Origin: a virus
Lineage: Duplodnaviria > Caudoviricetes
Direction: 5' to 3' (one strand)
IMG/VR virus record: IMGVR_UViG_3300001598_000034
Span: 1 to 64,000 of that record
Length of the DNA: 64,000 nucleotides
In this document: one piece after another, positions 4,912-39,031 of the stretch
Position numbering within the stretch: the stretch's first letter is position 1
Layout of the letters: each line of letters starts with the position of its first letter
Translations under genes and position numbers: made by a program
Notes under the pieces: generated by a model
Seen by the model: only the letters and a program-made list of their open reading frames with translations
Told to the model about the DNA's origin: nothing
The model's database searches: none

Positions 4912-5541
4912 TTAAACTTCATTAACAATGAAATAAATACAATTAGGATTTATAGTTGTTAAAGCATTGTATTGCTCTTGAGTACCTTTCCAAACAACAT
5001 TTTTTGCTTCTTCTGCATATTCTGCTGCTTCTACGGCAGAGTTACCAGCTTGTGTTTTATAGTTACTAGCTGCTGTTGCACTTACAGACGCATTATTGGC
5101 ACTTGTACTAGCTTGGTTAGCACTTGTTTCTGCTGCCATCTTACTTGATAATGCAGCTGTTGCATAATTATGAGAAGATGTGGCACTTTCTGCTGACGCA
5201 GATGCGCTTATAGCTGACTCACTTGCACTTGTAGCTGACTCACTTGCACTAATCGCAGAATTGCTTGCACTGGTACCTGCTGCAGATGCATAATTTTTAG
5301 CTTCTTCGCTAGCTAAGTCTAAATGTACCCAAGCGTCTCCCATTCGTGCATATAAAGCACCATTTTCATCCTTTACCGCATAACAATCACCTGCTGATGC
5401 AGAAGAAGGAAGAGCAGACTTGGTTGCTACCTCGCCTTTCGGCTTGAAGCCAGTACCGATTGATGTTACTGTCTTATCTGTATATTGTTTTGCTAGACTT
5501 CTAGCTATAGCAACCGATACCATCTCTGGAACTGTTGACAT
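4912..5541 (-). CDS. Tail fibre-like protein with Ala/Ser coiled-coil repeats
   Basis: SASESA-type repeats; KG.V.T..ALP..A..GD.Y module; C-terminal W.GTQEQYNAL...N.IYFI module. Confidence 0.7.
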   Translation of the reverse strand: MSTVPEMVSVAIARSLAKQYTDKTVTSIGTGFKPKGEVATKSALPSSASAGDCYAVKDENGALYARMGDAWVHLDLASEEAKNYASAAGTSASNSAISASESATSASESAISASASAESATSSHNYATAALSSKMAAETSANQASTSANNASVSATAASNYKTQAGNSAVEAAEYAEEAKNVVWKGTQEQYNALTTINPNCIYFIVNEV

Positions 5542-5551
5542 TTATCTTACC

Positions 5552-6850
5552 TCACTCATCTTCTGACAATACTGCTTGAATACCTAATGGATTAGCTACT
5601 GAAATAGTACCCGTTGAATCTACTTTAATAGTAGAGTTATCAACTTTAACTACACCTACTGCAGATGCACTTGCTAAGTCAGTAAAACCTACTTTATTTG
5701 TAGCGTAGGCATCATATGTAGCTACCTTAGCACTTGTTATCCCAGATCCTAAAGCTGCTTTTTCAGCTGCTGTAAACGGCTTATCATTTACAGGATATTC
5801 TGGAATCCAATGGTTTTTGTCATAAGGTACTTTCGTTGTTACCTTTTGATCATATTTATATCTCCAACGACTTCCATCATGTCCATGTGAAGTATCATTG
5901 TTGACTACTAAATAGTTGTTTAATCCTGGTACATTGTATCCAAGATCAGAGAATTCAGATTCTATTACTGGAATATCATTCCATGTTTCCCAGTTACCAC
6001 AGAAATATGCTGTAGCTGTTTGTACAGAAGAGTTTACTAAATCTATAAGATCTGTTTGGTTATAGATACTTCCTGAGAGATCTCCCCAGTAAAGATCTAC
6101 TTTAGCATTTTCTCCAGTCGTATATACTGATCCAACTGGATGACGTTGAAATGTGGACCCATTATTTACTACTGTTTCTGTTCCGTTATATACTACAGTA
6201 TAAAAGGAGTCAAATTCTGGTAAGTAAATTGATGGAAATTTTTCTCCTATTTTTACAATGGAAAACAACTCTCCAGTATAATAACTCATTGGGTTAGTTG
6301 GATCTAATAATACTGGTTGTTCTTCCCAATAAGGAGTATTAGTTGATTTTTCTGAAACTAATTTAAGAAAACCTGTATGAGTTTTGTTTACTGGTATAAA
6401 GGCATAAGTAACTGTTTCATTTGGTATATATTTATCTACATATATAGAAGGTGCAACTTTAAATCCACCTACAGAAACTATTGACGCTATTTTTACTGTG
6501 CTAGCATCGACATACTCTTTTGTAGCATAAGTATTAGAAATCCTAGACTCCAGTGTAGTCAAATCAGAAGTACTTGCTGCTGTTGATAGCTTTGTATATA
6601 CGTCTAATACTTCTGTTCTTGATGGTGTTGAGCTTCCTGCTAGAGTATTTGATATATATAGATTTTTCCATGGATGAGATACAGAGCCTAATGTCCATGG
6701 TAAGTCTGTTCTTTCTGAGTTTATAGGAGGAATAAATGAATCATTAACAATCAGAGGTGTACTTTTATTTTTTAAATTGTTTAATATAGCCTGTTCTGCC
6801 ATGATATGACGTTCGTACTGGCTATGAATTGGATATTTAGTCTGTGCCAT
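5552..6850 (-). CDS. Tail fibre protein
   Basis: Shares the FIPP...W.LG...HPWKNL.IS module with 7422-9254; WGDLSGSI..QTDL and GVVKVD fibre motifs. Confidence 0.65.
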   Translation of the reverse strand: MAQTKYPIHSQYERHIMAEQAILNNLKNKSTPLIVNDSFIPPINSERTDLPWTLGSVSHPWKNLYISNTLAGSSTPSRTEVLDVYTKLSTAASTSDLTTLESRISNTYATKEYVDASTVKIASIVSVGGFKVAPSIYVDKYIPNETVTYAFIPVNKTHTGFLKLVSEKSTNTPYWEEQPVLLDPTNPMSYYTGELFSIVKIGEKFPSIYLPEFDSFYTVVYNGTETVVNNGSTFQRHPVGSVYTTGENAKVDLYWGDLSGSIYNQTDLIDLVNSSVQTATAYFCGNWETWNDIPVIESEFSDLGYNVPGLNNYLVVNNDTSHGHDGSRWRYKYDQKVTTKVPYDKNHWIPEYPVNDKPFTAAEKAALGSGITSAKVATYDAYATNKVGFTDLASASAVGVVKVDNSTIKVDSTGTISVANPLGIQAVLSEDE

Positions 6851-19069: not shown

Positions 19070-19080
19070 TACTTATACCA
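19070..19080 (-). promoter_or_regulatory. Putative promoter TGGTATAAGTA (second promoter class)
   Basis: Identical 11-mer at 38076-38086 and 38188-38198, each upstream of the ncRNA elements. Confidence 0.55.
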
Positions 19081-27401: not shown

Positions 27402-27423
27402 ATTATTTAATTTCTCTACTAAG

Positions 27424-27495
27424 TCCTCTGGGGAATATTCGAAATTCCGTGTCACAATTATAAGTTGTGCATCCTAACCGCTGGATGACCAGAGG
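27424..27495 (-). tRNA. tRNA-Ile(UAU)-like, embedded in an extended hairpin, no encoded CCA
   Basis: CACAA-CTTATAA-TTGTG anticodon arm, D and T arms present; acceptor stem continues as a perfect duplex spanning 27410-27510. Confidence 0.7.
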
Positions 27496-27519
27496 ACTTA
27501 GTAGAGAAATATTTTCAAT

Positions 27520-34741: not shown

Positions 34742-35419
34742 TTATGCCTTTCTAAATACAAATCTACCCGTTTCAGGATCCAATACAAACCTCCCAGATT
34801 TAGGGGCTGACTCTTCTTTTACTGCCACTACCTCTTCTCTAGCATTCTCTTCCTCAATGGCGTCAAGCTCATTAAGTTCGCTAGCAGTAGGTTCCTCATC
34901 GTCTTTTTCTTTATCATCGGCATCTAGAAAGTGCTCGCCTTCAAGTAAAGAATTAATACGCTCTTCAAAATCCGCATCATCAAACTTTACTCTATCAGTA
35001 GTTTTTTTAGGGGCTTCAATTTCTTTTTTAGCATGCACCGCCAAATATTCACGAGCAGCATCGATTTCTCCATCTGGACAATTCATCCACATAATATTAC
35101 CATTATAAATAGGCACACCCTTTTGATATTGAGTATTACCATTAACAGTAATCTCGCGGTATGCTTGAACATTACCATTATTATTAGTAACTTTCATAAC
35201 AGATTCTGCACGTTCAACACGGTCCTCAGGAACCTCTTTTTCAACAGCTTCATCAATGCTCTTCTTCAATTGAGCAAAGTCTTTACGCATTTGCTCTCTA
35301 GCATCCGCTATCTTAATATTGATCTCATCCTGTACACTTTGGAATTCTTTAAACATATGATCCAAAGCTAATACAATATTCCCGGGGTTAGACTCAAACT
35401 TTTCAAAATTAGGTAACAT
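34742..35419 (-). CDS. Hypothetical acidic coiled-coil protein of the Ubl operon
   Basis: Likely start at MLPNF with AGGAG RBS. Confidence 0.6.
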   Translation of the reverse strand: MLPNFEKFESNPGNIVLALDHMFKEFQSVQDEINIKIADAREQMRKDFAQLKKSIDEAVEKEVPEDRVERAESVMKVTNNNGNVQAYREITVNGNTQYQKGVPIYNGNIMWMNCPDGEIDAAREYLAVHAKKEIEAPKKTTDRVKFDDADFEERINSLLEGEHFLDADDKEKDDEEPTASELNELDAIEEENAREEVVAVKEESAPKSGRFVLDPETGRFVFRKA

Positions 35420-35420
35420 C

Positions 35421-36272
35421 TTATTTCTCCTTTTCATTAAATACTTCAATAATTTTCTGGGTAGGCAATTTCTTAAATTTTTCTACAAACTTAATACATC
35501 CATCCTTAGCTACTGTTGCAAATGCCCCAGTATCATGTACACTTTCAGAACATTTCTGTATTACATATTCTTTTTGAAAATTTTCAAGAAGCTGTATTCT
35601 ACAAACACGGCAAGTGTCAGTAGTAGCTACAGGATTTTTACCAAAAGAAATATCTGGTACATAACCAATGCCTAACCCTCTGTTTAACGATTCATAAACG
35701 TCAGGAAGATAATGTTCCAAGAAACAACCTAGCTTAACACAATATTTTAACTGTGCTAATTCTACTTTAAATCTACTAGCAGTATAATTATTATCAAAAT
35801 AATTATAAGGAACATTATATACTAGCGTATTTTTATTTTTTAAATAATCAATATACTCATTTGACTTTGCCAAATTATAAACAGAGATAATCCATGCCCA
35901 TTTAGTAAAATCAAAAATAGCTGGTGGTAAGGTAATAATTGTCTTACTTAATTCACAATGTGTATCTATCATCAAATTACTATTATGTATATATTTCATA
36001 ACTAATTTATTACAGTCTTCTTTATACATAGTAGTAAAGTTATATAATGGAGTGTCATATATTTCCCAAAAGCAATTTTCATGAACATCAGTCAATGGGA
36101 TATATTTCTTAATTTCTCTTAAATAATTCCAAATACCCTCTAAACATCTTAATTTAGGAGATGCATTTAATAATGTCTCTTTAGTAATGTTTTCAGGATG
36201 GTTTACACCATTCATATAAGAGTAACTAAACAAACTTTCGATAAACATTGTTGCATTAGGTATCATACTCAT
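35421..36272 (-). CDS. Hypothetical protein of the Ubl operon
   Basis: 283-aa ORF coupled to its neighbours. Confidence 0.6.
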   Translation of the reverse strand: MSMIPNATMFIESLFSYSYMNGVNHPENITKETLLNASPKLRCLEGIWNYLREIKKYIPLTDVHENCFWEIYDTPLYNFTTMYKEDCNKLVMKYIHNSNLMIDTHCELSKTIITLPPAIFDFTKWAWIISVYNLAKSNEYIDYLKNKNTLVYNVPYNYFDNNYTASRFKVELAQLKYCVKLGCFLEHYLPDVYESLNRGLGIGYVPDISFGKNPVATTDTCRVCRIQLLENFQKEYVIQKCSESVHDTGAFATVAKDGCIKFVEKFKKLPTQKIIEVFNEKEK

Positions 36273-36565
36273 ATAAGAATTCTCCTCTTTCTAGATTTCT
36301 TTGATTCAGGAATTTTATTCATCAAGATTAATTGTAATGCTTCAAGGGATTCAACATTATTTCTCCTAATGTTTTCATTAACAGTATGTAAATAGTACAT
36401 TCCATAATCGAGGAGGTCATCCTTTGGAAAGTCCTTATCTAATAGTTCTTCTAAGGTATTAGCCTCAAATAAAGATTTAATATTATTATCGTTCTTATCT
36501 AAATACACATTAGGTAAAGACTTGACACCAGCAAGTAAGTCTAATTCAGTATTATCGTTTTGCAT
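36269..36565 (-). CDS. Hypothetical protein
   Basis: 98-aa ORF with AGGAG RBS. Confidence 0.55.
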   Translation of the reverse strand: MQNDNTELDLLAGVKSLPNVYLDKNDNNIKSLFEANTLEELLDKDFPKDDLLDYGMYYLHTVNENIRRNNVESLEALQLILMNKIPESKKSRKRRILI

Positions 36566-36612
36566 CTACATAATGTTCTCCTTTTTACTAAAAACGAAAA
36601 TTTTAAAAACCT

Positions 36613-36792
36613 TCGCCCTATGAATATTAAAATATACTATTCTTGCCGAAGACGCAATGATCTCCTCAAAGGCAGTAATAATATATTTTAATATTCATAG
36701 GGCGATTAAATAACTTGATCAGCTGTTTTTGTTTTACGTTTTTTATTTATATGTTAAATATCTCTTAGCTGACCTATTTAAGTCGCCCTATG
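36613..36792 (-). promoter_or_regulatory. Alternative-hairpin attenuator-like element
   Basis: 24-bp IR 36613-36636 / 36682-36705 followed by a U tract; TCGCCCTATG repeated at 36783-36792 gives a competing pairing. Confidence 0.55.
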
Positions 36793-36854
36793 TAGTGACT
36801 AAGGGAGCTGATTAGCAGCCATTAGTCTGTGTACGTACAGACTAACGGGTCAGA

Positions 36855-37100
36855 TTAGCAGCCCTTAGTCTGTGCACGTACAGACAAGTTTGCACTGTAT
36901 ACATGCATACCATTTGCATCCACGCCATCATCACTCCAAGAGGAAATGCGTGCGTTAGTGGGGAGGTTAGGAACTTGAGCACGAACTGCCTCAATGCAGT
37001 CTTCATCACTGAGAACTTCATCAGCAGTCATGAAGGGGAACTCAAAATCTCCATATCCAGCCACACGAATAATCTTCTTAATCATTTCATTTTGTTGCAT
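36855..37100 (-). CDS. Ubiquitin-like modifier (PRTRC protein C / Prok-Ub-like)
   Basis: 81 aa; P.L.NA.I motif and C-terminal AQTKGC (GTKG-like) upstream of the E2, JAB and E1 genes. Confidence 0.75.
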   Translation of the reverse strand: MQQNEMIKKIIRVAGYGDFEFPFMTADEVLSDEDCIEAVRAQVPNLPTNARISSWSDDGVDANGMHVYSANLSVRAQTKGC

Positions 37101-37310
37101 AGTAGTAATCTCCTTAAAATTTTAAATAGTTTTTGGTTGTACTTTAACTGCCAGCTTGCATACTATTCGTGATTAATATAACTCGATAACGATCTCTTAA
37201 TCTCCGAATCTCACTTTCAGGCGTAATTATCGCCGATACTTTCACGACAGTTTCGTATATACTATATTTCGGCTCCACTCAAAATATAGTTCTATAGATG
37301 AACCATTATC

Positions 37311-37517
37311 TATAGATATAATATTCTTTGTAACCGCGATCATCTCCCGAGATGTACTGGACGGTTCCTGGCAATGATCATTCGAGGCGCTGCCGGTACC
37401 GGCGGGCGACACTCTTCATACGGGCGTATGCTCTAAGCATACGCCATGAAATAGAAAGAAAGAGAATTCCCTTTCATTTTTTAAATTAAAGGTCTTACAA
37501 AGAATATTATATCTATA
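37311..37517 (-). ncRNA. Retron msr-msd-like ncRNA D
   Basis: 23-bp terminal IR; G opposite G; GAAAGGG-AAUU-CUCUUUC hairpin; U tract; GC-rich hairpins. Confidence 0.65.
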
Positions 37518-37558
37518 TACAATGTATATATTTATTTACAATGGATATGCATAAATAT

Positions 37559-37685
37559 AATAACAAGTATAGGTAGTGCTTTTAGGAGGATTTTAAGTTA
37601 TTTATCGAAAGGAGGTGTTATTTTATATGCATCAAAGGAGGTGTGATGTTTTAAAAGAGACAAGCACCAACCTATACTTGTTATT
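37559..37685 (-). ncRNA. Stem-enclosed RNA carrying three anti-Shine-Dalgarno motifs
   Basis: ~22-bp closing stem; the loop has CACCUCCUUU twice and AUCCUCCU once on the minus strand. Confidence 0.55.
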
Positions 37686-37691
37686 CGAGCT

Positions 37692-37993
37692 AATAGATAT
37701 TTAAATATGCTAACTAACAAAAATTTTGTGAAGTCTATTTGAACAAAAATCATAAAATGTCGGTAGCCTCTCTGTGGATTATTGGAATTCGTCTATGTGC
37801 AGGATCGGATAACGGTCAAGATACAAGTATAACAGGATCTTGCCGATTATCAGATCCTTGCATCTATGAGACGTTTCCAATACTCCACAGGAGGGCGTAC
37901 GAATTTTGTGATGTTTGTGCAAATTAAAAGTTGGAAGAGGAAGAACTCTTCCTCCATATGATAACTCTTAGTTAGCATATTTAAATATCTATT
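37692..37993 (-). ncRNA. Retron msr-msd-like ncRNA E
   Basis: 26-bp terminal IR; G opposite G; GAGGAAG-AGUU-CUUCCUC hairpin; pyrimidine tract; ~200-nt imperfect hairpin. Confidence 0.65.
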
Positions 37994-38075
37994 GTAAAAA
38001 AGGAGGGACTTCTATACCGAGCTTTTCAGCACGGTATAGAAGGTAGGAAGAAAAAATCTAAAGCATCCTACATAA

Positions 38076-38198
38076 TACTTATACCATTTTTTACTCAATT
38101 TTTTCGACTACAAAATTGGTATTAAATAGCATAAGTATTCAGCTCCCGTAAACCACTCATTGGAACATACTAAATATCTCCGCATAATACTTATACCA
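38076..38198 (-). promoter_or_regulatory. Tandem leftward promoters (ATGGTATAAGTATTATG twice)
   Basis: Repeated extended -10-like motif at the point where transcription diverges. Confidence 0.6.
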
Positions 38199-38229
38199 TT
38201 TTATACTATATTTTTTTGATCTAAAAAAC

Positions 38230-38240
38230 AGGTATAATAT
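38230..38240 (+). promoter_or_regulatory. AGGTATAATAT promoter motif (putative late/phage RNAP promoter)
   Basis: Same motif at 41022, 48857, 48906, 51928, 59414, 63404 (+) and at ~1180, 7331, 7353, 9302, 14951, 26998, 29488 (-). Confidence 0.75.
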
Positions 38241-38275
38241 CAACTAGAAAATACTATATTAGGAAGGAGTCTTTT

Positions 38276-39031
38276 ATGACTACAGATAAAAACGATAAAG
38301 TATCTATTGGAGAAAAAGTTAAAACAAAGCATTCTATTCTAACTTATAATCCAGATACAAATTCTAATACCTTTCTAGACTATACCGAAAAGACCTTACA
38401 TACAAACTATGATAAGCTATATGAAATCAAAACAAAGAGAGGCTATAGCATAAAGGTAACAAATGACCATAGCTTAATAACTAATGGTTCTGAAGACTTT
38501 TTTGAAAAGGTGTCTCCAGATAAAGCTCTTGGTAAGTTTGTTCCAGTTCTGTATAGTTTAAAATGTGGATTTAAAAAGTACAAAACAGCAAAAGACTTAA
38601 TCAATGATAAGCATACAATAGAATTAACTGCAGAATTATTAAAGTATGATGATATGACTATATGCGCAATAATATCCTTATTGTCTGTACCAGATAAAGA
38701 TGATGAAAAGTTAATGCATATTAGATACTTTAATAAACTAGAAAAATACATTATTCTTTTACTACTTGCAAGGTTATCTTATTTTGTAGAGAAAATAACA
38801 GATGAAGAAATCTTAGCAACACTTTATAAAGGAAAACAAATACCAGAAAATAATAAACTAGTAGATGCAGAAGAAGTAGTTAACGACAATCCTGCTAATC
38901 CATACTTATCACTTCCTTACTCCTGGGATGAAATAATAGAAGTGAATGAAGTAGAGAGAGAAGAGATTACCTATGATTTCTCAGTGCCGCGATATCCATT
39001 ATTTATGGCGAATGGAATCATAGTATTTGAT
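38276..39031 (+). mobile_element. Intein C-terminal fragment (252 aa), lacking block A and ending in Asp
   Basis: Block B IKVTNDHSL; blocks F/G TYDFSVP..P.FMANGIIVFD followed by Thr+1. Confidence 0.75.

What the first reader, a model, noticed from the sequence alone, without database searches (positions are those of the whole stretch)
37559..37685. Stem-closed RNA displaying three anti-Shine-Dalgarno sequences
Seen: between retron-like units D and E, a ~22-bp stem encloses AGGAGG (37584), AAAGGAGGTG (37608) and AAAGGAGGTG (37634) on the plus strand, with no credible ORF behind them. In the inferred transcription direction (minus) these read CACCUCCUUU, matching the 16S rRNA 3' tail. One copy is presented in a CAUCA/UGAUG hairpin loop. 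Inference: an early sRNA that pairs with strong host RBSs (translational shut-off) or decoys a protein that binds the 16S tail. If transcribed from the plus strand it would instead be a ribosome or CsrA sponge.
Basis: partly seen in the sequence, partly recalled or inferred. Interest (0 to 1): 0.8.

Follow-up and report, generated by a model that had tools for sequence, protein, structure and literature searches.

The report
Phage small RNA, triple anti-Shine-Dalgarno
A 146-kb gut phage carries a roughly 127-base stem-closed, probably non-coding RNA module that holds out three copies of the ribosome's own mRNA-docking sequence, a design also found with its own promoter and stop signal in an unrelated group of giant gut phages; it probably blocks ribosome-binding sites, but no transcript or target has been shown.

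Summary
A 16-bp perfect inverted repeat, 23 bp on the minus-strand RNA, encloses three GGAGG motifs, including the only two AAAGGAGGTG in the 146.6-kb phage.

The minus strand is the likely RNA strand. Two copies of a directional, family-conserved promoter motif (GGTATAAGTAT plus hairpin) point into the module array. In relatives a protein gene of the same operon lies at that place.

On that strand the motifs read CACCUCCUUU. They are about 90-100% unpaired in the predicted ensemble, in a G-poor interior.

The same design occurs in a distant relative, L034. It also occurs in a family of 15 gut jumbo-phage contigs, G001, with a TTGACA-17-TGnTAATAT promoter and a U-run. There the three CCUCC motifs are kept while a spacer is rewritten.

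There is no Rfam match. A covariance model of the G001 family does not hit our unit, so the link is one of design, not shown homology.

Best reading: a phage version of the G-poor, multi-seed anti-SD sRNAs of Bacillota (LhrC, RsaE/RoxS). Host shut-off and a 16S-tail decoy remain conjecture.

No RNA data could be obtained. This scan has noted other phage anti-SD sRNA candidates on other DNA, but not this architecture.

The parts
37559..37685 (-). The whole stem-closed unit (127 nt): 5' arm, G-poor interior with three CCUCC motifs, 3' arm
37662..37685 (-). 5' arm of the closing helix on the minus-strand RNA (AAUAACAAGUAUAGGU, one bulged U, GGUGCUU)
   Evidence: 16 perfect pairs plus 7 pairs, one of them G.U
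37559..37582 (-). 3' arm of the closing helix, followed by the U/A-rich AUAUUUAU (37551-37558)
37634..37643 (-). Motif 1, CACCUCCUUU, in the 9-nt loop of the CAUCA/UGAUG hairpin (37630-37648)
   Evidence: mean P(unpaired) 1.0
37608..37617 (-). Motif 2, CACCUCCUUU(C), which by my recollection equals 11 nt of the bacterial 16S 3' tail; single-stranded
   Evidence: P(unpaired) 0.89
37584..37589 (-). Motif 3, UCCUCCU followed by AAAA, just before the 3' arm
   Evidence: P(unpaired) 0.92
38071..38085 (-). Class-B promoter motif GGTATAAGTATTATG pointing into the array, followed by a hairpin (38038-38066)
38183..38197 (-). Second class-B promoter motif on the minus strand
   Evidence: (D2)
38009..38042 (-). 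Leader hairpin followed by UCCCUCCUUUUUU (a fourth CCUCC); weakly terminator-like. A second leader hairpin is conserved in relatives
   Evidence: (I15)
37692..37993 (-). Neighbouring module E: 26-bp perfect closing stem around a ~300-nt rod-like hairpin; contains a fifth CCUCC (37889-37894)
37304..37524 (-). Neighbouring module D: 30-nt arms around a GC-rich multi-stem core
37627..37704 (+). The only plus-strand ORF behind one of the SD-like sites (25 codons, spacing 11 nt); the rival reading

Best explanation
The unit is one module of a minus-strand non-coding transcript. That transcript starts at the class-B promoters at 38085/38197 and runs through the module array towards the ubiquitin-like (Ubl) operon. 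The unit gives, on its own or after cleavage in its ~23-bp closing helix, a stable ~125-nt RNA. The helix protects both ends and holds open an A/U/C-only interior. In that interior three CCUCC seeds are single-stranded; two of them are CACCUCCUUU, which from memory matches the 16S 3' tail. The RNA most likely acts by base-pairing with GGAGG-type Shine-Dalgarno sites of phage or host mRNAs and so keeps 30S subunits off them, one RNA offering three redundant sites. Shown: the anatomy, its non-random nature, the orientation of the conserved promoter motif, the predicted exposure and G-depletion, and the recurrence of the design with conserved motifs in other phages. Inferred: transcription, processing, pairing with SD sites, and the identity of the targets.
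For: Structure and rarity. Polarity has several supports. The motif GGTATAAGTAT(W)(W)TG plus hairpin occurs 7 times in the genome, always on the minus strand, twice just upstream of the array. In all relatives examined here it lies back-to-back with the RNAP promoter and points into the Ubl operon. In 27 instances from related contigs, 22 have an SD-preceded ORF within 400 nt downstream against 3 upstream. Relatives carry a 115-162-aa minus-strand gene where the array lies here. Only one of five plus-strand AGGAGG in 37584-38001 has a start codon at a usable distance. Exposure: the mean P(unpaired) of CCUCC is 0.89-1.0 on the minus strand against 0.32-0.59 for GGAGG on the plus strand. The interior holds 4 G in 83 nt where 14.8 are expected (P = 4e-4). 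Recurrence: L034:1116-1345 is a stem-closed unit at the same place in a distant relative. It carries ACCUCCUUU, ACCUCCUUC and CACCCUUU on the operon-sense strand, and its arms have 3 G.U on that strand against 1 on the other. In the G001 family a TTGACA-17-TGnTAATAT promoter, a 16-bp closing stem, three CCUCC motifs and a U-run are kept in 15 contigs whose neighbouring protein is 69-100% identical. In L373/L374 the spacer between motifs 1 and 2 is rewritten while the motifs stay. The composite pattern ACCTCCTT..CACCTCCTTT..TCCTCC, in a non-coding and stem-closed setting, was found in all of IMG/VR plus 185,579 species genomes only here and in that family. Precedent: LhrC uses three redundant CU-rich sites on a G-poor sRNA to bind the SD region (PMC4132741).
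Against: No terminator or strong promoter of its own flanks our unit. Terminator-like hairpins inside module E (37952-37933) and the hairpin at 38009-38042 could stop class-B transcripts before they reach it. Most relatives lack any such unit, so it is not needed by the lineage. A covariance model of the G001 family does not detect our unit, so the parallel may be convergence. A duplex scan against 148 crude phage start regions gave only generic strong-SD genes and no specific target. Thirty-four phage genes themselves use GGAGG sites. Module E folds 12 kcal/mol better on the plus strand. The perfect arms would also fit a DNA-level element.
Confidence: 0.45

Rival explanations
1. A cis-acting leader element. 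The unit is part of the long 5' leader of the Ubl operon. In G001 it leads a small membrane-protein gene. Its anti-SD copies and closing helix would control read-through or translation of the genes downstream on the same transcript, not act in trans.
For: In every case the unit lies upstream of same-strand genes. Ours and L034 are in the operon leader, and L033:866-1097 lies between the Ubl gene and the next gene. In 14 G001-family contigs the U-run is followed within about 20 nt by AAAGGAG and the ATG of the next gene, with no promoter seen in between.
Against: Three redundant anti-SD sites for one SD is unusual. In our phage the next SD is about 450 nt away, beyond module D. In G001 a TnpB element sits between the unit and the gene, yet the unit is unchanged. 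The downstream SD region varies among contigs with identical units, so there is no co-variation.
Confidence: 0.2
2. A decoy of the 16S rRNA 3' tail. The exposed CACCUCCUUU copies would titrate or mislead a protein that recognises the anti-SD tail, for example a ribosome-inactivating endoribonuclease of a host defence or toxin-antitoxin system, or a 16S 3'-end maturation factor.
For: Two copies match, from my memory of the sequence, 10-11 contiguous nt of the 16S tail, more than the CCUCC core needed for SD pairing. The same extended form CACCUCCUUU is kept as motif 2 in most of the G001 family. From my own knowledge, not tested here: MazF-type toxins that cut the anti-SD (MazF-mt3, CUCCU) exist.
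Against: Motifs 1 and 3, and the L373 variant of motif 2 (CUCCUCCUUU), keep only the CCUCC(U) core. That fits SD pairing better than tail mimicry. The extended match is equally what a perfect SD complement looks like. No candidate partner was identified, and the host is unknown.
Confidence: 0.1
3. A DNA-level element with no RNA role: a replication origin or iteron cluster, a recombination or inversion site, or a relic of a small mobile element with terminal inverted repeats.
For: It lies in the divergent intergenic region where gene orientation and GC skew switch. It has three ~26-nt direct repeats flanked by perfect inverted repeats. The arms of three adjacent modules are perfect, which RNA stems do not need. 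The array replaced a gene, so the locus is plastic. A 17-nt inverted repeat, 36754-36770 with 37688-37704, brackets the region (I9).
Against: It is single-copy in the genome, with no target-site duplication. The TnpB link in G001 is coincidental, since 0 of 75 TnpB relatives carry the unit. In G001 the motif spacings are 36 and 32 nt and the unit has a promoter and a U-run. Only the 5-10-nt core is repeated, not full iterons. GC skew simply follows gene strand.
Confidence: 0.1
4. A plus-strand reading: the GGAGG sites are real ribosome-binding sites of micro-ORFs, or the plus-strand RNA is a ribosome or CsrA sponge.
For: Site 2 has an ATG 11 nt downstream opening 25 codons, and 3 of 34 real RBSs in this genome use that spacing. 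Relatives also have a 19-35-codon ORF behind one site. A 381-kb phage contig (L015) has three to four tandem AAAGGAGGTGAT repeats on the sense strand between two genes, so sense-strand SD arrays exist.
Against: No class-A or class-B promoter faces this way upstream of the unit. Four of five plus-strand AGGAGG have no usable start. The small ORFs are unrelated in sequence, with spacings of 3, 7, 11 and 12 nt. GGAGG is partly paired on the plus strand. The G001 promoter and U-run fix the opposite polarity. The phage has no CsrA gene.
Confidence: 0.08
5. A template for the phage's retron-type reverse transcriptase. The stem-closed RNA would be copied into single-stranded DNA carrying GGAGG sites, which could hybridise to the 16S tail.
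For: The genome encodes a retron-type RT (PADLOC RT_III-A, E = 6.6e-44) behind a class-B promoter.
Against: The interior has no msd-like hairpin and no msr stem-loops. The RT is 78 kb away and has its own flanking structured regions. The complete G001 genome has the analogous unit but no RT.
Confidence: 0.04

Closest known systems
LhrC1-5 of Listeria monocytogenes (PMC4132741)
   Same: A roughly 110-nt, guanosine-poor sRNA with three redundant C/U-rich sites, in a loop, in a single strand and near the 3' helix. Each site can bind the G-rich SD region of a target and block translation. Our unit likewise shows three exposed C-rich sites, one of them in a hairpin loop, in a G-poor RNA.
   Different: The LhrC motif is UCCC, not CACCUCCUUU. 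LhrC has two local hairpins and a classical terminator, not one long helix joining the 5' and 3' ends. It is chromosomal and stress-induced. There is no sequence similarity and no Rfam hit.
RsaE/RoxS, FsrA and S. aureus RNAIII/SprD-type C-rich-seed sRNAs of Bacillota (PMC6158497, PMC8216469, PMC5419742; the papers were listed by the search, and the properties stated here are from my own knowledge)
   Same: Several C-rich regions in unpaired positions that pair with SD sequences; they work without an obligatory Hfq.
   Different: Those are conserved host genes with defined regulons. No covariance-model match here. Ours is phage-borne and sits inside an array of stem-closed modules.
The stem-closed triple-CCUCC RNA of the G001 jumbo-phage family
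   Same: 120-127 nt. A 16-bp or longer helix joins the two ends. The order is the same: ACCUCCUU, then CACCUCCUUU, then UCCUCC plus an A-run just before the 3' arm. The interior is A/U-rich. G001-family contigs are from human-gut metagenomes; our phage's relatives also come from gut samples.
   Different: It has its own sigma-70-type promoter and U-run. The spacers are 27 and 23 nt against 17 and 17. The phage lineage is unrelated. The covariance model gives no hit on our unit, so homology is not shown.
Processing helices that enclose RNAs in polycistronic precursors (rRNA operons; RNase III sites in phage early transcripts; from my own knowledge)
   Same: Long helices formed by the sequences flanking each RNA, tiled along one transcript. 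Here they are 23, 26 and 30 bp in three adjacent modules.
   Different: Cleavage is untested. The phage has no RNase III gene of its own. The G001 helix (16 bp) is short for RNase III.

Membership tests
C-rich multi-seed anti-SD sRNAs of Bacillota (LhrC, RsaE/RoxS type) | Exposed C-rich motif(s) complementary to the SD, in loops or single strands | tested here: met
   Mean P(unpaired) is 0.89-1.0 for the three CCUCC on the minus strand; one lies in a 9-nt hairpin loop
C-rich multi-seed anti-SD sRNAs of Bacillota (LhrC, RsaE/RoxS type) | G-poor body that keeps the seeds unpaired | tested here: met
   4 G in the 83-nt interior against 14.8 expected, P = 4e-4; LhrC is described as poor in guanosine
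C-rich multi-seed anti-SD sRNAs of Bacillota (LhrC, RsaE/RoxS type) | Separate transcript with its own promoter and terminator | tested here: inconclusive
   Class-B promoters lie 400-510 nt upstream on the right strand. The only nearby promoter-like site is weak (TTCACA-17-CATATT, 37732-37704) and no canonical terminator follows. The G001 analogue does have a promoter and a U-run
C-rich multi-seed anti-SD sRNAs of Bacillota (LhrC, RsaE/RoxS type) | Shown pairing with target start regions and repression of translation | not testable with these tools
   The duplex scan against phage start regions gave only generic strong-SD genes; the host is unknown
C-rich multi-seed anti-SD sRNAs of Bacillota (LhrC, RsaE/RoxS type) | Match to a curated RNA family model | tested here: not met
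   No Rfam family at the gathering score or at E up to 5; none for the L034 or G001 units either
G001-type stem-closed triple-CCUCC phage RNA | Helix joining the 5' and 3' ends around ACCUCCUU, CACCUCCUUU, UCCUCC in this order | tested here: met
   Both match the composite pattern. They are the only non-coding, stem-closed matches in IMG/VR and 185,579 species genomes
G001-type stem-closed triple-CCUCC phage RNA | Detectable sequence-plus-structure homology (covariance model R1) | tested here: not met
   R1 scores the G001 unit at 164 bits and gives no hit on window 37559-37685 at E up to 10
Retron msr-msd RNA | Cognate retron RT | tested here: inconclusive
   A retron-type RT is in the genome at 115722-117299, but 78 kb away. 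G001 has the analogous unit and no RT
Retron msr-msd RNA | msr stem-loops and a stable msd hairpin between the a1/a2 repeats | tested here: not met
   The interior is essentially unstructured apart from one 5-bp hairpin
CsrB/RsmZ-type protein sponge (plus strand) | Many GGA motifs presented in hairpin loops on the transcribed strand | tested here: not met
   Only three sites, with P(unpaired) 0.32-0.59 on the plus strand. The promoter evidence favours the other strand. No CsrA gene in the phage
MITE or IS-derived element | Several copies, target-site duplication, or link to a transposase | tested here: not met
   Single copy, no duplication at the ends; 0 of 75 TnpB relatives carry the G001 unit
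Genuine RBS plus small gene (plus strand) | Start codon about 7-10 nt after GGAGG (the modal spacings; real sites here range 3-13 nt), opening a conserved ORF | tested here: not met
   One of three sites has a start (11 nt, 25 codons). The ORFs in relatives are unrelated

The most novel reading that the evidence does not exclude
Phages of at least two unrelated lineages make a stable, end-protected RNA that copies the 3' tail of 16S rRNA three times. It would serve either as a decoy that disarms a ribosome-targeting host defence nuclease, or as a stoichiometric blocker of strong Shine-Dalgarno sites that re-programmes translation during infection. That would be a new class of phage take-over or counter-defence RNA, not an ordinary target-specific sRNA.
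Probability: 0.12. Interest if true: 0.85.

Novelty: new variant of a known kind. Interest (0 to 1): 0.6.

Why it matters
Regulatory RNAs of large lytic phages are almost unexplored. Here the same unusual design appears in two unrelated gut-phage lineages: one helix tying both ends together and three exposed copies of the anti-Shine-Dalgarno sequence. In one lineage it is more conserved than the neighbouring protein. This gives a concrete candidate that is easy to clone, about 125 nt, for testing whether phages interfere with translation initiation through RNA. It also gives a second handle, the G001 family with its clear promoter and terminator, on which direction and motif requirement can be tested cleanly. 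If the RNA proved to be a 16S-tail decoy or a general SD blocker, it would add a new mode of host take-over or counter-defence.

Tried and rejected
2. GenBank phages: blastn of 36200-38400 found no match.
3. Rfam at the gathering score and at a permissive E-value found nothing but sub-threshold hairpin look-alikes.
4. The 115-162-aa gene that relatives carry at this place has left no trace in our region or genome, so the array is not a decayed copy of it.
5. The array as a DNA query against 31 related phage records gave no match.
6. Downstream regions of 54 class-B promoters in relatives mostly hold short leaders and genes, with no enrichment of CCUCC: 6 CCUCC against 4 GGAGG in 8.9 kb. The unit is therefore not a general feature of that promoter class.
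7. Pattern scans of IMG/VR for tandem AAAGGAGGTG or ACCTCCTT gave mostly coding KGG-type repeats or adjacent real RBSs.
8. The idea that the G001 unit is the left end of the adjoining TnpB element is rejected: 0 of 75 relatives carry it.
9. A hit in G015 lies inside a 636-codon ORF.
10. The covariance model of the G001 family gave no hit on our unit.
11. The duplex-energy target scan on phage start regions was uninformative.
12. An ATAGTAT-type promoter motif has no genome-wide support.
13. The phage has no genes for RNase III, bS21 or CsrA.

Full report
**Setting.** The window is the first 64 kb of a 146,590-bp IMG/VR phage record (34.8% GC, about 92% complete).

- Genes run leftwards up to 37100 and rightwards from 38276.
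- The rightward gene is the C-terminal part of an RNA polymerase beta' with an intein.
- The leftward genes form a ubiquitin-like (Ubl), E2, JAB and E1 operon.
- Between them lie 1,175 nt without a credible gene. This stretch is tiled by stem-closed modules: D (37304-37524), the unit in question (37559-37685), E (37692-37993) and a hairpin at 38009-38042.

- A perfect 16-bp inverted repeat is extended across a bulge. On the minus-strand RNA this gives 23 pairs, one of them G.U.
- The interior carries AGGAGG at 37584 and AAAGGAGGTG at 37608 and 37634. The latter two are the only copies of that 10-mer in the genome.
- Five of the fifteen plus-strand AGGAGG of the genome lie within 420 nt here.
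- Three CCTCC at 12-40-nt spacing occur only four times in 27 phage genomes. One of the other three is the analogous RNA described below, and one is inside a gene.
- The two 10-mers stem from a local ~26-nt duplication.
- Both strands fold far better than shuffled sequence, mainly through the closing helix.
- On the plus strand only site 2 has a start codon at a usable distance, opening 25 codons. Site 3 gives ATG-TTT-TAA and site 1 gives nothing.

**Which strand is RNA?** The phage has two conserved promoter-like motifs.

- Class A is a T-run followed by AGGTATAATAT. It occurs about 30 times, co-oriented with the downstream genes in the cases inspected, and one copy sits at 38231 in front of the polymerase gene.
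- Class B is an A-rich stretch, then GGTATAAGTAT(W)(W)TG, then a hairpin at once. It occurs seven times, always on the minus strand. Two copies, at 38085 and 38197, point into the array.
- In all relatives examined here the class-B motif lies back-to-back with the class-A polymerase promoter and points to the Ubl operon.
- In 27 evaluable instances from related IMG/VR contigs, 22 have an SD-preceded ORF within 400 nt downstream against 3 upstream.
- In relatives with 50-55% identical polymerase, the place of our array is taken by a 115-162-aa gene on that same strand. No trace of that gene is left in our genome.

The array is therefore operon-sense on the window's minus strand, and there the motifs read CACCUCCUUU, CACCUCCUUUC and UCCUCCU. 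Two caveats apply. A hairpin followed by UCCCUCCUUUUUU (38009-38042) and terminator-like hairpins inside modules E and D could stop transcripts. The only promoter-like site close to the unit is weak.

**Properties on that strand.**

- The three CCUCC are almost fully unpaired in the ensemble (0.89-1.0). GGAGG on the other strand is half paired through G.U.
- One copy sits in the loop of the CAUCA/UGAUG hairpin.
- The interior is A/U/C-rich with 4 G in 83 nt, where 14.8 are expected.

**Related sequences.**

- *L034*, a distant relative with the same promoter pair and operon order, has a stem-closed unit at the same place (L034:1116-1345, 48-nt arms). Its operon-sense interior reads ACCUCCUUU, ACCUCCUUC and CACCCUUU in a G-poor stretch. 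Its arms hold three G.U on that strand against one on the other.
- *Two other relatives* have single copies: L004 in the leader, and L033:866-1097 in a stem-closed unit inside the operon.
- *Small antisense ORFs* behind one site in each relative are unrelated in sequence, with spacings of 3, 7, 11 and 12 nt.
- *G001*, an unrelated complete 214-kb phage, has a 123-nt unit with TTGACA-17-TGnTAATAT, a 16-bp closing helix, UUUACCUCCUUAU, CACCUCCUUUUUCG, UUUCCUCCAAAAA, and a U-run after the 3' arm.
- *The G001 family*: the unit is kept, promoter and U-run included, in 15 contigs whose neighbouring protein is only 69-100% identical. In L373/L374 the spacer between motifs 1 and 2 is rewritten while the motifs stay.
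- *The TnpB gene* beside it in G001 is an insertion. Seventy-five relatives of that TnpB lack the unit, and 14 G001 relatives have a membrane-protein gene there instead.
- *Rarity*: a composite pattern matched by both our unit and G001 was scanned over all of IMG/VR and one genome for each of 185,579 species. Its only non-coding, stem-closed matches are these two.
- *Limit*: a covariance model of the G001 family does not find our unit. The two share a design, not demonstrable ancestry.

**Interpretation.** The anatomy is that of the G-poor, multi-seed anti-SD sRNAs of low-GC Gram-positive bacteria. LhrC has three redundant CU-rich sites that each bind the SD region of its target (PMC4132741). 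RsaE/RoxS work likewise, by my own knowledge (papers found). I therefore take the unit as a phage version of this kind. A terminal helix protects the ends, and in G001 it also serves with the U-run as a terminator. The three seeds would pair with GGAGG-type ribosome-binding sites. Transcription, processing and targets are inferred, not shown.

A global host shut-off is unlikely on stoichiometry, and 34 phage genes use GGAGG themselves. Regulation of a subset of strong sites, phage or host, is more plausible.

Rivals:

- a cis-acting leader of the downstream genes;
- a decoy of the 16S tail for a protein;
- a DNA-level element;
- the plus-strand reading;
- a template for the phage's retron-type RT.

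The RT reading is weakened because the interior has no msd-like hairpin and G001 has no RT.

**Comparison and verdict.** No curated family matches. The kind, an anti-SD C-rich sRNA, is known. The end-to-end helix, the three near-perfect 16S-tail copies and the phage setting make it a new variant. Earlier notes of this scan report other phage anti-SD RNA candidates on other genomes. None has this architecture, and I did not test them. Without RNA data the functional claim stays at moderate confidence.

Noticed in passing
G000:115722-117299 (minus strand; outside the window; L002:742-2319): A 525-aa retron-type reverse transcriptase (Pfam RVT_1; PADLOC RT_III-A, E = 6.6e-44) lies behind a class-B promoter at 118244. 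Stem-closed structured regions flank it on both sides (L002:2950-3215 and L002:560-735).
   Followed up: partly
whole genome; e.g. window 38231 (+), 41023 (+), 29496/29538 (-); class B at 19079, 38085, 38197 (-): There are two phage promoter-like motif classes. Class A is a T-run plus AGGTATAATAT, about 30 copies, co-oriented with genes. Class B is GGTATAAGTAT(W)(W)TG plus an immediate hairpin, 7 copies, all on the minus strand. Class B is conserved in at least 25 IMG/VR phage contigs.
   Followed up: partly
window 27410-27510: A 22-bp perfect stem (27410-27431 with 27489-27510) encloses the ARAGORN tRNA-Ile(tat) call at 27423-27495. The Rfam tRNA model did not report this one. It could be a tRNA-like module with an extended acceptor helix, or a false tRNA call.
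   Followed up: no
window 37100-38276 against L005-L010 (about 5430-5900): Relatives have a 115-162-aa gene as the first gene of the Ubl operon where this phage has the 1.17-kb module array. The contigs of the two closest relatives (L003, L004) break 82 and 275 nt upstream of the polymerase gene.
   Followed up: partly
window 36754-36770 and 37688-37704: A 17-nt inverted repeat (16 of 17 complementary) brackets the Ubl gene, module D and the unit. The same arm sequence recurs at 37981-37993. It may be a recombination or inversion site, or chance.
   Followed up: no
window 34742-35449 and 35421-36272 (minus strand): Two overlapping ORFs of 235 and 283 aa correspond in position and summed length to one 518-574-aa gene in relatives (for example L005:3074-4630). 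The gene looks split or frameshifted here.
   Followed up: no
window 82091 region of the genome (G000:81985-82091, minus strand; outside the window): A class-B promoter is followed by a ~100-nt stem-closed structure (GUAGUAGG...CCUACUAC) and a U-run. This is another candidate stand-alone ncRNA.
   Followed up: no
L015:505-600 (IMGVR_UViG_3300035703_002301, 381 kb): Three to four tandem 26-nt repeats each carry AAAGGAGGTGAT, by my recollection the full complement of the 16S tail. They lie on the sense strand, spanning the 3' end of the upstream gene (ends at 540) and the gap before the next gene. This is the opposite polarity to our unit and may be a ribosome standby array.
   Followed up: partly
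L286:216-288 (minus strand) and L286:335-1486 (minus strand): In G001 an IS605-type TnpB gene, with a RAGATH-18 RNA motif at its 3' end, is inserted directly after the triple-CCUCC RNA. The TnpB family has more than 70 copies at 62-80% identity across phage contigs of the same metagenome.
   Followed up: partly
window 37692-37993: Module E is a ~300-nt rod-like hairpin (z = -14). It folds 12 kcal/mol better on the plus strand (7 G.U) than on the minus strand (2 G.U). That sits oddly with minus-strand transcription of the array and is unexplained.
   Followed up: partly
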